A stretch of DNA of 64,000 nucleotides, from the NCBI GenBank assembly GCA_043811375.1, contig JBDRNJ010000006.1, positions 32,001 through 96,000 on the forward strand, given 5' to 3'. A model generated the notes under the pieces. It worked only from the letters and a program-made list of their open reading frames with translations. It was not told the DNA's origin and ran no database searches. Below, one piece after another: positions 26,537 through 30,722 of the stretch. Made by a program: the position numbers and the translations under genes. The first letter of the stretch is position 1. Each line of letters opens with the position of its first letter. Source of the stretch: a bacterium. Lineage in GTDB: Bacteria; Zixibacteria; MSB-5A5; GN15; FEB-12.

Positions 26537-26639
26537 ATCTATTTGGACTGTCCGCCAGTCGCTGGTCGGACATATAGACAGCAAACATTGACGGCAGGCA
26601 CGAGGCCTGCCGTTTTTGATCGGCGAGGATGTCCCGGTA

Positions 26640-29039
26640 ATGGCTCGCACCAGCGAATACGTCACGGTGGCCGTATCCGGCCCCCTGCGCAGAACTTTCA
26701 CCTATCGCCTGCCGTCGATATCGACTACTCTACAGCCGGGACAAAGGGTTCTGGTGCCTTTTGGTTCGGCCAGGAAAGTTGGTTTCTACCTCGGCCCGGG
26801 TGAACCGATCGGGTCTCTGAAGATCAAGGAGATCATCAGATTTATCGATGAGTACTCACTGTTTCCCAAAGAACTGTTTCGCCTGTGCTGCTGGATGGCT
26901 GACTACTATTTCGCCAATCCGGCCGACTGCCTTCAGACAGTATTGCCGCCGGGTATGAAGTCCGGCCACCAGGCAGTCTACTATTACAGCGAGACGGCCG
27001 ACCGAAGTGTTTCATTACCCGCCTGGCTGGAACCGTTAGTGAAGCCGGGACGACCGGTGGCGATATCAACGTTGCGCAGGATAAAATCCCAGGGTGGTCG
27101 TCTGCTGACACGATTACGACAGCAGGAAGTTATTACCGAAGTCTGGCCGGAAGTGAGTTCCCGGTCCCAAAGGAAGGCCGCCGGCTACCGGGTCGCGGCG
27201 GTCGAGAAATGGCATCTGTATTTTCAGAAGAAGGGCTTCACCCCGGAGCCATTTGATGGCACCAGGACCCGAAAAGAATTAACAGCCACCGGTTTCAGCG
27301 ATTACCGCATCCGCCAATCGGTGGCGGATGGTCTCCTGCAACCGGTTTACCATGATGATCTCAAAACAATACTGAGTTTTATCGAACCAAGGCAGGATGT
27401 CGCTTCTCTCGTACTTAATGATGAACAACAGTCTGTGCTGGATACTCTCAAGGCCGATCTCAATAGTGGTTTCACTACCGGTCTGCTTCACGGAATCACC
27501 GGTTCCGGCAAGACCCTGGTCTACTGCCACCTGGCCAGGGAAGTGCTGCGGCAGTCGAAGACCGTTTTGGTTCTTACACCGGAGATTGCCCTGGCCGGGA
27601 CCACTTTGGCATATTTCAGGGGTTTCTTTGGCGGGCAGGTGACAGTAGTGCATTCGGCGATGACCCCGCGAGAGAGGATGGCCGGATGGCGGGGTGTCAG
27701 GGAAGGGAAATTCCGTGTTGTGGTGGGTCCGCGCTCGGCTTTATTGACGCCGTTGCCGGACCTGGGATTGATTGTGGTCGACGAAGAACATGACAGCTCC
27801 TACAAACAGAATGATCCGGCACCGCGCTTCCATGGCCGCGACACAGCCATCATGCGGGCCAGATTTAACGACATCCCTGTTTTGCTGGGTTCGGCCTCAC
27901 CGTCTCTCGAATCATACTATAACACCCGCACCGGTCGGTATCGTCTGCTGCGTCTCACCAGGCGTCCCGGCACTACCAGCCTGCCGACCGTAAAAGTAGT
28001 AGACATGCGCAAAGAGCGAATCAGGGGTGACCTGCCGTTTCTGTCTTACCCGCTTAAAAAAGCAGTCGAAAGACGGCTGCAAAACGATGAGCAGGTTATT
28101 CTTTATCTCAACCGGCGCGGCCACTCCCCACAACTCAAGTGTGCATCATGCGGCCATGTACCCCAGTGTCCTCAGTGCCGGGTGAACCTGACCTGGCACA
28201 AAGCCGGTGGTAAGCTCTCGTGTCACTACTGTGGCCACCTGGCGGCCGGATTCAGCAGTTGTCCCCGGTGTGGGGGCGGCGATATTCTCTATCTTGGAGC
28301 CGGGACCCAGAAGGTGGAAGAGGCCGTTGGCCGCCTGTTTACCGATGCTCGAGCGGTCCGGTTCGATTCTGATTCTGTAGCTGGAAGGACCAAAGCCCAC
28401 CAGGTCCTGACCCGGTTTGCCGCCGGAGAGCACAATCTGTTGCTGGGGACACAGATGGTTACCAAAGGGCTGGACCTGCCGGGAGTAACTCTGGTGGGCG
28501 TACTGGCGGCTGATCTCAGCCTGGACCTGCCTGATTTCCGTGCTTCCGAGCGAACCTTTATGCAACTTCTCCAGGTAGCCGGTCGTTGTGGCCGCGCCGA
28601 CAAACCGGGTGAAGTGTTAATCCAGACTTTCTATCCTGACAGCCCGGTTATAAACGAAGCTGCCGCTCAGGACTATCAGACATTCTTCGACCGGGAGATA
28701 AAATCCCGCCGGGAACTTCACTATCCGCCGACAGCACGCCTGGTTAATTTTGTCCTTTCCTCGACGAACGAAAAGCAACTGGAGTCCGCAATCACCTCTT
28801 TTCGTGACCGGCTTAACCGGACGGTCGACGAGTCCGGCGTCAAGGTCACCATACTGGGTCCGGCGCCCTGCCCCATGTATTTTCTACGCGGCCGCTACCG
28901 CCGGCAACTGATTGTCAAGACCCGACAGGTAATAAAACTCCTGAAAACCCTGACCGACTGGGAGAACCGCCGGCCACGATTCAAACTGCCCTCCTCGGTG
29001 CGTATCGCCGTCGACGTAGATGCTCAGGATATGATGTAG
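26640..29039 (+). CDS. priA: primosomal protein N'
   Basis: HGITGSGKT, DEEHD..YKQ, SASPSLES, four CxxC pairs, GTQMVTKGLD, QVAGRCGR. Confidence 0.97.
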   Translation: MARTSEYVTVAVSGPLRRTFTYRLPSISTTLQPGQRVLVPFGSARKVGFYLGPGEPIGSLKIKEIIRFIDEYSLFPKELFRLCCWMADYYFANPADCLQTVLPPGMKSGHQAVYYYSETADRSVSLPAWLEPLVKPGRPVAISTLRRIKSQGGRLLTRLRQQEVITEVWPEVSSRSQRKAAGYRVAAVEKWHLYFQKKGFTPEPFDGTRTRKELTATGFSDYRIRQSVADGLLQPVYHDDLKTILSFIEPRQDVASLVLNDEQQSVLDTLKADLNSGFTTGLLHGITGSGKTLVYCHLAREVLRQSKTVLVLTPEIALAGTTLAYFRGFFGGQVTVVHSAMTPRERMAGWRGVREGKFRVVVGPRSALLTPLPDLGLIVVDEEHDSSYKQNDPAPRFHGRDTAIMRARFNDIPVLLGSASPSLESYYNTRTGRYRLLRLTRRPGTTSLPTVKVVDMRKERIRGDLPFLSYPLKKAVERRLQNDEQVILYLNRRGHSPQLKCASCGHVPQCPQCRVNLTWHKAGGKLSCHYCGHLAAGFSSCPRCGGGDILYLGAGTQKVEEAVGRLFTDARAVRFDSDSVAGRTKAHQVLTRFAAGEHNLLLGTQMVTKGLDLPGVTLVGVLAADLSLDLPDFRASERTFMQLLQVAGRCGRADKPGEVLIQTFYPDSPVINEAAAQDYQTFFDREIKSRRELHYPPTARLVNFVLSSTNEKQLESAITSFRDRLNRTVDESGVKVTILGPAPCPMYFLRGRYRRQLIVKTRQVIKLLKTLTDWENRRPRFKLPSSVRIAVDVDAQDMM

Positions 29040-29293: not shown

Positions 29294-29322
29294 TTGACAT
29301 AGGTTTTGTGGACATATTAAAT
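29294..29322 (+). promoter_or_regulatory. sigma70-type promoter of the leader/AsnRS-like unit
   Basis: TTGACA at 29294 followed by AT-rich -10 region (TATTAAAT 29315-29322), AT-rich upstream. Confidence 0.6.
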
Positions 29323-29337
29323 ACAATTTTCAAAGAC

Positions 29338-29424
29338 ATGTTAATCATAATTTTAGGCATAGTACTACTATTGCTTTCAGACGCCAAACTGCTGGCCATA
29401 GAGGGAGCGGCGGTTGTCGTCTAA
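29338..29424 (+). CDS. putative attenuator leader peptide MLIIILGIVLLLLSDAKLLAIEGAAVVV (28 aa)
   Basis: ATG 29338 to TAA 29424; 17/28 Ile/Leu/Val, many TTA/ATA/CTA/GTA codons; lies between promoter and terminator. Confidence 0.7.
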   Translation: MLIIILGIVLLLLSDAKLLAIEGAAVVV

Positions 29425-29470
29425 ATTCACGAGGACTGGGGATAAAACCCCGCACGGTTTTGGCATTTGT

Positions 29471-29504
29471 GGCCACCCGGTATTGATCGGGTGGCCTTTT
29501 TTTT
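29471..29504 (+). terminator. intrinsic terminator (attenuator) upstream of AsnRS-like gene
   Basis: GGCCACCCGG-TATTGA-TCGGGTGGCC followed by T8, about 20 nt before the start codon. Confidence 0.85.
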
Positions 29505-29526
29505 ACCCCAACATGAGGAGAGCGAG

Positions 29527-30522
29527 ATGCGGCATTTAGCGGTTACCAATGGCGAGTTTGTCAGGACCAGTGTCCTGCGTTCGAGGTTACTCAAGTCTGC
29601 CCGCGATTGGTTTGATGAACATTCATTTGTCGAGATTCAGGTACCTCATATTACCGGAGCAACCGGTTCCTGCGAGTGGTTTCCCAACGCCATGCCGGTC
29701 ACGATGTTCGATCAGGATGGTGCCGAGACCACCATGTTCCTGCGGCAGACGGGGCAACTCTACCTGGAAGCCTTCACGGTCGCCCATAACCGTGTCTACA
29801 CCATTGGACCGTCGTTTCGTCAGGAACGCAAGGTAACCGACCGCCACCTGTGCGAATTCACGCTAATCGAGTTTGAGGCTCGGGACCTTGACCTGGACAG
29901 CCTGATGGATCACATTGAGTCGTTGATCAAAACAATGTTTACCGGTGCACAGGAATTGTATCCCAACGGTTTGCTGTCTAAGTACGCACACCTGCCGTTT
30001 AACCGGATATCGTACGCTGACGCAGTTGCTCTTCTGCAGACGAACGGCCACACGATTGAGCTAGGTGATGATTTCGGAAGTGGCGAAGAAGGAGCTCTGT
30101 GCCGGATGCTTCACGATCTGCCAACTTTTGTGACTCATTACCCCTCCAATCCCAGACCGAAAAAGGGCGGCGTGATAAAGTTCTTCTCCATGAAACGCGA
30201 TAACGGGACCACGCTTTGTTGCGACCTGCTGCTGCCGCACGCCGGGGAATCAGTCGGCGGAGCCGTGCGTGAGGGCTGCACCGGGACCTGCAAGAAACAG
30301 TTTGAGGAATCTTACATGTACGACCACCTGGTGGAACGTGGTGTCGATCCGGCCCAGTTTGAGTGGTATTTTGAGACGCTCCAGCAGGCGGATGGTCAGT
30401 CGACCGGATGTGGGATCGGCTTTGAGCGGGTGGTGCAGTCAATCATGGCGACTGAGCAAGGCCACATGAGTATCAAGACGGCTGTGGAGTTGCCGCGATC
30501 ACCGGAGTTCCTGACGCCTTAG
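29527..30522 (+). CDS. AsnRS-like class IIb aminoacyl-tRNA synthetase paralog, catalytic core only
   Basis: FVEIQVP (motif 1), QTGQLYLE, GPSFRQE...RHLCEFTLIEFE (motif 2), GESVGGAVRE, GCGIGFER (motif 3); no N-terminal OB domain; GAGGAG RBS before ATG 29527. Confidence 0.88.
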   Translation: MRHLAVTNGEFVRTSVLRSRLLKSARDWFDEHSFVEIQVPHITGATGSCEWFPNAMPVTMFDQDGAETTMFLRQTGQLYLEAFTVAHNRVYTIGPSFRQERKVTDRHLCEFTLIEFEARDLDLDSLMDHIESLIKTMFTGAQELYPNGLLSKYAHLPFNRISYADAVALLQTNGHTIELGDDFGSGEEGALCRMLHDLPTFVTHYPSNPRPKKGGVIKFFSMKRDNGTTLCCDLLLPHAGESVGGAVREGCTGTCKKQFEESYMYDHLVERGVDPAQFEWYFETLQQADGQSTGCGIGFERVVQSIMATEQGHMSIKTAVELPRSPEFLTP

Positions 30523-30649: not shown

Positions 30650-30722
30650 TGACCCCAACGGGAGTCGAACCCGTGCTTCCGCCGTGAAAGGGCAGTGTCC
30701 TAGGCCACTAGACGATGGGGTC
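30650..30722 (-). tRNA. tRNA-Glu(TTC)
   Basis: minus strand GACCCCATCGTCTAGTGGCCTAGGACACTGCCCTTTCACGGCGG...GGTTCGACTCCCGTTGGGGTCA. Confidence 0.95.

What the first reader, a model, noticed from the sequence alone, without database searches (positions are those of the whole stretch)
29294..30522. Ile/Leu/Val leader-peptide attenuator in front of an anticodon-less AsnRS paralog
Seen: promoter, then an ORF missing from the ORF track (29338-29424, MLIIILGIVLLLLSDAKLLAIEGAAVVV) in which 11 of codons 2-13 are Ile/Leu/Val, many of them TTA/ATA/CTA/GTA. Three helices can be drawn by hand: protector 29379-29394 with 29408-29422; antiterminator TGGCCATAGA (29393-29402) with TTTGTGGCCA (29466-29475), which invades the terminator left arm; terminator 29471-29496 + T8. 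Known: this is the layout of ilvGMEDA/ilvBN/leu ribosome-stalling attenuators, and the AKLL...AAVVV stretch resembles my recollection of E. coli IvbL (to be verified). Unexpected: the downstream gene is not a branched-chain amino acid enzyme, transporter or Ile/Leu/ValRS, but an Asn/Asp-type class II synthetase core. The other two frames give no start-codon-bearing Asn/Asp-rich leader. Inference: a possibly undescribed circuit in which branched-chain starvation, or slow AUA/CUA decoding, induces a tRNA-independent adenylating enzyme.
Basis: partly seen in the sequence, partly recalled or inferred. Interest (0 to 1): 0.88.

Follow-up and report, generated by a model that had tools for sequence, protein, structure and literature searches.

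The report
Relay attenuator on pyrimidine-shortcut enzyme
This is a conserved transcription-termination leader in uncultured Zixibacteria, built from two overlapping short reading frames, that likely senses pyrimidine nucleotides rather than branched-chain amino acids and sits in front of a shortened asparagine tRNA-synthetase relative predicted to replace the first three enzymes of pyrimidine synthesis.

Summary
The ORF, helices and terminator are present, but the Ile/Leu/Val reading fails. ILV fills 11 of codons 2-13 here and only 2-7 in 14 homologous leaders, and the hand-drawn antiterminator is not conserved. What is conserved is a relay. uORF1 (sequence free) stops on top of an SD-led second start (29414), and that frame runs through the terminator: 38 of 58 terminator-bearing leaders, 0.6 expected. 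A pyrimidine tract covers the predicted start site in 40 of 45 promoters. This is the logic of the E. coli pyrBI attenuator, with a two-ORF relay not found in my literature searches.

The downstream anticodon-less AsnRS core belongs to a family tied to pyrimidine synthesis. It heads pyrD/E/F operons, follows PyrR-like sites, and is fused to MGS and dihydroorotate dehydrogenase domains. In one Chloroflexota order, 6 of 7 carriers lack carA and pyrB, 20 of 20 sampled non-carriers have both, and the gene occupies the operon slot of pyrB-carAB-pyrC. In Zixibacteria carA is found in 0 of 40 carriers and 13 of 40 non-carriers.

Best reading: an ATP-dependent, carbamoyl-phosphate-free route to dihydroorotate, likely from asparagine and CO2, induced at low UTP. 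Chemistry and regulation are untested.

The parts
29294..29322 (+). Sigma70-type promoter: -35 TTGACA (29294-29299), 17 nt, weak -10 TTAAAT (29317-29322); inferred
   Evidence: Sequence; 45 aligned homologous promoters put T at -10 positions 1 and 6 in 40 and 36 of 45; not listed by the consensus scan
29327..29332 (+). Pyrimidine tract over the expected start-site window, then the first purine (A29332); predicted UTP/CTP-sensitive start-site or slippage element
   Evidence: Four pyrimidines then A in 40 of 45 homologous promoters versus 7 of 367 promoter-like sites in this genome
29338..29424 (+). uORF1, 28 codons, starting near the predicted 5' end without an SD; length and position conserved, peptide not
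   Evidence: 27-29 codons in 15 short-class leaders, ILV-rich only here
29379..29422 (+).
   Evidence: Duplex -15.8 kcal/mol. An SD-hiding hairpin is seen in some homologs only (z<-1 in 14 of 36)
29401..29407 (+). Shine-Dalgarno of uORF2
   Evidence: dG -8.1 here; at most -4 in 34 of 36 leaders versus 18% of control windows
29414..29539 (+). uORF2, 41 codons, TTG start overlapping the uORF1 stop by 11 nt, reading through the terminator
   Evidence: open to the terminator loop in 36 of 36 hand-assigned leaders versus 24 and 20 in the other frames; relay in 38 of 58 by script, 0.6 expected
29438..29451 (+). Small hairpin P2 followed by a U-rich stretch; candidate RNA polymerase pause (inferred)
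   Evidence: Folds; 4-bp consensus helix in 16 short leaders, covariation term only -0.4; U fraction 0.33 after the uORF1 stop versus 0.20 before, higher in 32 of 36
29461..29475 (+). Small hairpin P3 that takes the base of the terminator's left arm
   Evidence: -3.8 kcal/mol; forms in 30 of 36 leaders, mean -4.2 versus -1.9 in shuffles, not above shuffles in this genome
29471..29504 (+). Intrinsic terminator, 11-bp stem plus T8, 46 nt after the uORF1 stop
   Evidence: a terminator is found in 58 of 67 distinct leaders
29527..30522 (+). 331-aa anticodon-less AsnRS catalytic core; predicted ATP-dependent entry enzyme of pyrimidine synthesis
   Evidence: fold; pyrimidine context; family

Best explanation
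The leader is likely a pyrimidine-sensing transcription-translation coupling attenuator: ribosomes finishing uORF1 would restart at the overlapping uORF2 and, when low UTP slows RNA polymerase, would run onto the terminator and let transcription enter a gene whose product is predicted to make dihydroorotate from asparagine, CO2 and ATP. Shown: the two overlapping ORFs, SD, terminator and start-site pyrimidine tract are conserved while the peptides are not; the uORF1 stop lies too far from the terminator to block it alone; the gene family sits in pyr operons and in place of carAB-pyrB-pyrC. Inferred: re-initiation, pausing, UTP as the signal, start-site switching, and the reaction (N-carboxylation of Asn, adenylation, ring closure by the side-chain amide). 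Confidence by step: ORF-through-terminator control about 0.8; pyrimidine signal about 0.7; enzyme feeds PyrD about 0.75; Asn + CO2 chemistry about 0.5.
For: Leader. Relay in 38 of 58 terminator-bearing leaders (0.6 expected) and an SD-led ORF through the terminator in 47 of 58 (10.1 expected). The motif is at 1 of 224 terminator-like sites in this genome, this one. Overlaps of 4, 7, 8, 11, 14 and 17 nt in both shifted frames fit re-initiation, not frameshifting. Stop-to-terminator distance is 32-49 nt; in E. coli a ribosome more than 27 nt away did not repress a terminator (PMC4824070). Other clades of the family put one 40-48-codon ORF into the terminator behind an AATTTG start region, the pyrBI start sequence (PMC6524683). 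Enzyme. PyrR-site matches sit upstream in 5 of 5 distant loci (36-43 bits, below the cut-off of 54). Operons with pyrD/E/F, pyrB and pyrR. pyrB and carA in 1 of 7 carriers versus 20 of 20 non-carriers; pyrC over cut-off in 0 of 7 versus 19 of 20. Same operon slot as pyrB-carA-carB-pyrC. carA in 0 of 40 versus 13 of 40 Zixibacteria. Fusions to MGS, and to MGS + DHO dehydrogenase + PRTase. Asn-pocket positions kept: E115 in 78 of 78, R248 in 77 of 78 (residue roles recalled).
Against: All 40 Zixibacteria carriers tested keep pyrC and pyrB (one frameshifted) and 39 of 40 keep carbamate kinase, so the enzyme is not needed there as a full bypass. 27 of 40 non-carriers lack carA too. G285-G288, G326 and G736 have both carA and the paralog. 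No pyr gene is a conserved neighbour in Zixibacteria, so the link rests on homology at 30-37% identity, with branch support of 91/93, not starred. U enrichment is modest and the longest U run is usually 3. 9 of 67 leaders have no terminator, and 11 of 58 have no SD-led ORF through it by the strict test. Kin are not independent, and absences come from MAGs. Four carriers have unplaced sub-cut-off pyrC-like hits.
Confidence: 0.62

Rival explanations
1. Classical Ile/Leu/Val stalling attenuator: ribosomes stall on the ILV codons, the long-range antiterminator forms, and the gene is read. A weaker form is that this one lineage has added ILV control on top of the relay.
For: 11 of 12 ILV codons; the antiterminator duplex beats shuffles here (z -3.05); ddG is least negative (-12.3 to -14.1 versus -16.1) with a ribosome on about codons 11-15 of this uORF1; codon 3 is Ile in most short leaders.
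Against: Homologs have 2-7 of 12 ILV and no such helix; long leaders have unrelated uORF1 peptides; the terminator still wins by 12 kcal/mol at the best stall position; the gene family is pyrimidine-linked.
Confidence: 0.07
2. The leader is an ORF-through-terminator attenuator, but it reads general translation capacity (growth rate, re-initiation efficiency, ribosome drugs) rather than UTP, like the E. coli ampC attenuator (recalled).
For: Peptides are free in sequence and frame; a relay adds a termination and re-initiation step that could itself be the sensor; U-rich pause signals are modest.
Against: Pyrimidine tract at the start site in 40 of 45 promoters; the same gene family uses PyrR-like sites or pyrBI-like single-ORF leaders elsewhere.
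Confidence: 0.15
3. The enzyme serves pyrimidine synthesis by another reaction: it makes N-carbamoyl-aspartate or another carbamoyl donor, or activates the beta-carboxyl of aspartate as AsnA does, so it replaces only CarAB (and PyrB) and not PyrC.
For: In Zixibacteria only carA is exclusive with it, while pyrB and pyrC are kept; fusion to the CarB-type MGS domain; sub-cut-off pyrC-like hits in 4 carriers.
Against: Carrier operons are paralog-pyrE-pyrF-pyrD with no pyrC, in the slot that holds pyrC in G736; 2 of 7 carriers have no pyrC-like hit at 1e-45; direct fusion to DHO dehydrogenase.
Confidence: 0.2
4. The protein is an ammonia-dependent asparagine synthetase (AsnA or archaeal AS-AR type) that lies near pyr genes because it supplies nitrogen or asparagine.
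For: It is the known function of an anticodon-less AsnRS/AspRS core (PMC3532385); this genome has AsnRS and no full GatB; weak PRK06462 hits (90 bits versus a cut-off of 368).
Against: The closest solved relative is AsnRS (E 5e-42), AS-AR only 7.5e-9; Leu, not Lys, at the carboxylate-binding position (role recalled); the genome has three AsnB-type genes; it does not explain the loss of carA and pyrB in carriers.
Confidence: 0.06
5. uORF1 is an independent membrane peptide or Ibs-like type I toxin, and the terminator is unrelated to regulation.
For: The peptide is hydrophobic in this genome.
Against: Homologous peptides are often Arg/Pro-rich and unconserved; no Pfam family above cut-off and no NCBIfam family; no antitoxin RNA family in Rfam.
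Confidence: 0.02

Closest known systems
E. coli pyrBI (pyrL) and pyrE attenuators
   Same: An intrinsic terminator lies inside a translated leader ORF and the peptide sequence is free; control is by UTP-dependent pausing and a trailing ribosome (PMC4824070, PMC7818426, passages). The Chloroflexota leaders of this family even share the AATTTG start region.
   Different: Most Zixibacteria leaders split the leader ORF into two overlapping frames with an internal SD; short-class uORF1 starts near the 5' end without an SD; one Zixibacteria subgroup has one ORF through two tandem terminators. UTP control is untested here.
pyrC/pyrD start-site switching and codBA/upp/carAB reiterative transcription
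   Same: A run of pyrimidines covers the start-site window before the first purine (mechanisms in PMC6524683 and PMC6245113, passages).
   Different: Start sites are not mapped; the T run precedes the first purine rather than following it, and no 5' SD-hiding hairpin was shown.
ilvGMEDA / ilvBN / leu leader-peptide attenuators
   Same: Short uORF, alternative helices and terminator; ILV-rich in this genome.
   Different: Control codons and antiterminator are not conserved; a second ORF crosses the terminator; the regulated gene is not a branched-chain gene.
Asparaginyl-tRNA synthetase (P. horikoshii 1x54)
   Same: Closest solved sequence and fold (E 5e-42; TM 0.79); motif 2/3 arginines and Asn-pocket positions are kept.
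   Different: No anticodon domain; family signatures G[AS]CE loop, EF-x-L and KFF[NST]M; forms a separate branch; the genome has its own full AsnRS.
AsnA / archaeal AS-AR (AsnRS2) and EpmA
   Same: Anticodon-less class IIb cores reused for tRNA-independent adenylation chemistry.
   Different: Far below their family cut-offs; pyrimidine rather than Asn or EF-P context; EF-P here has Arg at the tip.
CarAB + PyrB + PyrC (canonical route to dihydroorotate)
   Same: Predicted same product, same operon slot, shared MGS regulatory domain in fusions.
   Different: One unrelated enzyme, predicted to work through an adenylate without carbamoyl phosphate.

Membership tests
ILV leader-peptide attenuator | Run of Ile/Leu/Val control codons conserved among homologs | tested here: not met
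   11 of 12 here, 2-7 of 12 in 14 homologs
ILV leader-peptide attenuator | Conserved antiterminator favoured by a stall on the control codons | tested here: not met
   Present only here (z -3.05); flat ddG profile over 36 leaders
ILV leader-peptide attenuator | Regulated gene in branched-chain synthesis, transport or charging | tested here: not met
   PF00152 AsnRS-like core
pyrBI-type coupling attenuator | Intrinsic terminator inside a translated leader ORF | tested here: met
   47 of 58 by script, 10.1 expected; uORF2 here; translation itself not shown
pyrBI-type coupling attenuator | Peptide sequence and frame not constrained | tested here: met
   All three frames relative to the terminator are used
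pyrBI-type coupling attenuator | U-rich pause site before the terminator | tested here: inconclusive
   U 0.33 versus 0.20, higher in 32 of 36; longest run usually 3
pyrBI-type coupling attenuator | One continuous leader ORF | tested here: not met
   Two-ORF relay in 38 of 58; a single ORF occurs in other clades
pyrBI-type coupling attenuator | Read-through responds to UTP | not testable with these tools
   The only RNA run has no cover on the leader
PyrR-controlled leader (RF00515) | PyrR-binding stem-loop | tested here: not met
   No match in the window or in 13 other paralog loci, while this genome's pyrR leader scores 34 bits
AsnRS | OB-fold anticodon domain and score over cut-off | tested here: not met
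   177 bits versus 414; no PF01336
Asparagine synthetase A (AsnA / AS-AR) | PRK06462 score over cut-off; closest to 3p8t | tested here: not met
   90 bits versus 368; 3p8t E 7.5e-9 versus 1x54 5e-42
Asparagine synthetase A (AsnA / AS-AR) | Asp + NH3 + ATP gives Asn | not testable with these tools
   Needs an assay
T-box or riboswitch | Match to a curated Rfam family | tested here: not met
   Only the tRNA passes; other hits are terminator-only chance matches

The most novel reading that the evidence does not exclude
A widespread, unrecognised family of AsnRS-derived enzymes makes dihydroorotate in one ATP-dependent step from asparagine and CO2, replacing carbamoyl-phosphate synthetase, aspartate transcarbamylase and dihydroorotase. 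Zixibacteria control it with a new kind of UTP sensor in which start-site choice and a stop-restart ribosome relay decide whether a terminator folds.
Probability: 0.45. Interest if true: 0.93.

Novelty: categorically new. Interest (0 to 1): 0.82.

Why it matters
The route from carbamoyl phosphate to dihydroorotate is treated as the general entry to de novo pyrimidine synthesis. Genomes that lack carAB, pyrB and pyrC but keep pyrD, pyrE and pyrF would be scored as auxotrophs or incomplete. A one-gene bypass would fill that gap, re-annotate a family now labelled 'asparaginyl-tRNA synthetase' (78 clusters at 50% identity among the best 150 hits) and add new chemistry to the tRNA-synthetase paralogs. 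It is testable by one complementation. The leader extends pyrBI-type control to an uncultured phylum with an added re-initiation step. The novelty label refers to the enzyme route; the leader alone is a new variant of a known kind.

Tried and rejected
ILV sensing and the long-range antiterminator. Asn/Asp control codons: 0-2 Asn per short uORF1. EF-P modification as the enzyme's role: the EF-P tip is Arg and uORF1 here has no Pro. Programmed +1 frameshift at the uORF1 stop: no conserved slippery codon, and overlaps occur in both shifted frames. Riboswitch, T-box or PyrR site in the Zixibacteria leader. PyrB or PyrC replacement within Zixibacteria: both are kept. R73 as a new carboxylate binder: Arg in only 10 of 78 family members. 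Loss of the loop Glu, suggested, was reversed by closer AsnRS rows. An SD-hiding hairpin as a universal element: z<-1 in 14 of 36 only, not here. Covariation in the short leaders is weak (2 of 12 pairs with a double change). Link to the upstream priA: not a conserved neighbour; the one passage seen of the bioRxiv AsnRS/replication paper was not relevant. Viral contigs gave one 30-aa hit; the eight best plasmid hits were about 30-35% identical and, where annotated, asnS; the longer-forms search gave only full AsnRS fusions. RNA run X1 has no cover on the leader. The ESM Atlas gave only PF00152 clusters. Slips: the L078 row of alignment A4 was a wrong slice and was dropped; the P2 fold used a shifted span; the L042 stop was misassigned (corrected).
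Full report
Observation. The window holds TTGACA at 29294-29299, a 28-codon ORF at 29338-29424 with 11 Ile/Leu/Val among codons 2-13, an 11-bp terminator at 29471-29496 with T8, and a 331-aa gene at 29527-30522. The protein is a PF00152 core below every NCBIfam cut-off, best asnS at 177 bits versus 414. Its closest solved relative is P. horikoshii AsnRS by profile (E 5e-42; AS-AR 7.5e-9) and by fold (pLDDT 86.8, TM 0.79). The genome has its own AsnRS, AspRS and LysRS. Most named close homologs are labelled Zixibacteria, at 68-81% identity in the listed hits; the gene is in 60 of 285 genomes of the phylum.

The ILV reading does not hold. In 14 homologous short leaders an ATG sits at nearly the same distance from the promoter and opens 27-29 codons, but ILV fills only 2-7 of codons 2-13 (a 16th leader, L042, had no ORF in the frame tested and proved to be a 27-codon uORF1 with a 7-nt overlap). 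The long-range antiterminator is not above shuffles in 14 other leaders. Masking a ribosome footprint along uORF1 in 36 leaders left the terminator favoured by 13-16 kcal/mol on average; in this genome the gap narrows to about 12 near codons 11-15. A lineage-private ILV layer is therefore not excluded, but it is not the conserved design.

What is conserved. A scripted census of 67 distinct leaders with at least 200 nt of upstream DNA found a terminator in 58, an SD-led ORF through it in 47 (10.1 expected from shuffles), and in 38 a relay, in which that ORF's start overlaps the stop of an upstream ORF in another frame (0.6 expected). Loci without a 5' end were dropped. Here the second ORF is 29414-29539, with a TTG start, an SD at 29401-29407 and an 11-nt overlap. 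In 36 hand-assigned leaders it was open to the terminator loop in all, against 24 and 20 for the other frames and 21.5 expected, and it used all three frames relative to the hairpin. The motif occurs at 1 of 224 terminator-like sites in this genome, this one. Overlaps of 4 to 17 nt in both shifted frames point to re-initiation. The uORF1 stop lies 32-49 nt before the terminator (46 here); in an E. coli system a ribosome more than 27 nt away did not repress a terminator (PMC4824070, passages). So uORF2, not uORF1, would be the ORF that blocks folding. Four pyrimidines then A cover the expected start window in 40 of 45 promoters, versus 7 of 367 promoter-like sites in this genome. U rises from 0.20 to 0.33 after the uORF1 stop. 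Relatives are not independent, so these counts overstate significance.

The gene family is tied to pyrimidine synthesis. Four Chloroflexia loci at 33-35% identity and one at 27% place the gene before pyrD-like and pyrF or pyrF-E genes, or beside pyrB and pyrR, and all five have a PyrR-site match directly upstream (36-43 bits, under the cut-off of 54). In the order of G676 (Ktedonobacterales by the source name of P0238; the tool gave no name) 7 of 121 genomes carry it. pyrB and carA pass cut-off in 1 of these 7 and in all 20 non-carriers tested, which were the 20 listed of 114. pyrC passes in 0 of 7 versus 19 of 20; G736 has a sub-cut-off copy inside its pyr operon, four carriers have unplaced sub-cut-off hits and two have none. 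Behind shared upstream genes (an FKBP-type gene in G676, an arsenite methyltransferase in G757 and G713), G736 has pyrB-carA-carB-flavoprotein-pyrC-pyrE-pyrF, whereas G757 and G676 have paralog-pyrE-pyrF-pyrD, as does G724 behind another neighbour. Among 50%-identity representatives, P0316 is core + MGS and P0317 is core + MGS + dihydroorotate dehydrogenase + PRTase (2 of 26 longer hits scanned). In a panel of 40 of the 60 Zixibacteria carriers and 40 of the 225 non-carriers, chosen mostly for completeness, carA passed cut-off in 0 versus 13. pyrB (79 of 80 over cut-off, the last frameshifted) and carbamate kinase (79 of 80) are general, and pyrC is in 40 of 40 carriers. This genome lacks carA and carB and has pyrR-pyrB-pyrC and pyrK-pyrD-pyrF elsewhere. 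All 31 truncated proteins fall on one side of a branch (91/93) apart from 16 AsnRS rows (97/92); 15 of 27 Chloroflexota AsnRS loci entered the tree, and long branches meet. Of the best 150 representatives, 78 are 280-375 aa; they share the loop Cys (77 of 78) and keep E50, Q77, R98, E115, R248 and R301.

How the leader most likely works (inferred). At high UTP, polymerase runs ahead and the terminator folds. At low UTP it pauses on the U-rich stretch; ribosomes finish uORF1, open the hairpin over the second start, restart, and cover the terminator's left arm, so the gene is transcribed. Start-site switching or slippage on the T tract would add a second layer and might set whether the SD-less uORF1 is translated. 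This is the pyrBI principle (PMC4824070, PMC7818426, PMC6524683, PMC6245113; passages). Other clades of the family use a single ORF into the terminator behind an AATTTG start region, or one ORF through tandem terminators, which suggests repeated solutions to one signal. The Zixibacteria leaders have no PyrR site, though this genome's pyrR leader scores weakly.

How the enzyme most likely works (inferred). It stands upstream of PyrD and replaces three steps in some genomes, so its product is likely dihydroorotate. Asparagine plus one carbonyl gives all ring atoms, and the Asn pocket is kept (residue roles recalled from AsnRS structures). I propose N-carboxylation, adenylation and ring closure, by analogy with TsaC chemistry (recalled). 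In Zixibacteria it would be an inducible alternative to CarAB, on top of carbamate kinase.

Against. Zixibacteria carriers keep pyrB and pyrC; 27 of 40 non-carriers lack carA as well; six Chloroflexota genomes have both carA and the paralog; no pyr gene is a conserved neighbour in Zixibacteria; R248 is Thr in the Chloroflexia clade; 9 of 67 leaders lack a terminator; absences come from MAGs whose completeness the tool did not print for Chloroflexota (a filter of 85% was requested); no RNA data cover the leader.

Novelty. Nine searches of the open library (listings only, except the papers named) showed no AsnRS paralog in pyrimidine synthesis and no two-ORF relay attenuator; subscription journals and supplements were not seen. 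PMC3532385 (passages) describes AsnA; PMC7858274 and one bioRxiv paper added nothing. One unchecked note of this scan, seen after my reading had formed, reports the same family fused to MGS before pyrD-pyrE-pyrF; I confirmed such fusions but not its taxon, and it is not independent support.

Verdict. The feature is real, the ILV interpretation is not supported, and the locus points to a likely new route into pyrimidine synthesis under a relay form of pyrBI-type control. Interest 0.82.

Noticed in passing
window 30650-30722 (-): tRNA-Glu(TTC) directly downstream on the opposite strand; a tRNA lies at the same place in L039.
   Followed up: no
window 26616-29039 (+): priA upstream of the leader; not a conserved neighbour in homologous loci.
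   Followed up: partly
L020-L022, about 45-70 nt before the start codon: Family f2 has no terminator leader but a conserved 24-nt palindrome near the promoter, likely a transcription-factor site, so this clade may use a repressor instead.
   Followed up: no
L073-L077, L125 leaders: Two tandem terminators crossed by one long leader ORF in a Zixibacteria subgroup.
   Followed up: partly
L065 leader: By eye a three-ORF chain: a 5'-end ORF overlaps the start of uORF1, which overlaps uORF2.
   Followed up: no
L002, L024, L026, L045-L047 upstream regions: Short palindromic repeat elements appear to have replaced or split the leader, with loss of the terminator or of uORF1.
   Followed up: no
G000:C21:90931-91857 and 78 other Zixibacteria: Carbamate kinase is in 79 of 80 genomes while carA passes cut-off in 13 of 80, so the phylum likely makes carbamoyl phosphate as Pyrococcus does.
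   Followed up: partly
G245:C27:33129-34253, G250:C14:6378-7373: Degenerate CarA-like genes (28% identity, below cut-off) in two carriers.
   Followed up: partly
G000:C69:38475-39428: ilvC stands alone, with no other ilv gene recognised beside it.
   Followed up: no
L130:3918-5117, L132:4009-5196, L133:3948-5129: A divergent, about 395-aa dihydroorotate dehydrogenase-like protein (52-58 bits, far below cut-off) and a CbrC-like gene follow the paralog in Chloroflexia.
   Followed up: no
L023, L024, L026 downstream: The paralog is followed by kdsB-like and pyrG-like genes (named by eye) in one genus.
   Followed up: no
L135:1153-2538: pyrB next to the paralog is interrupted by one TGA, which may be decay or an assembly error.
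   Followed up: no
P0320 (822 aa), P0358 (795 aa): Family-like core at the C-terminus behind more than 400 residues with no Pfam match.
   Followed up: no
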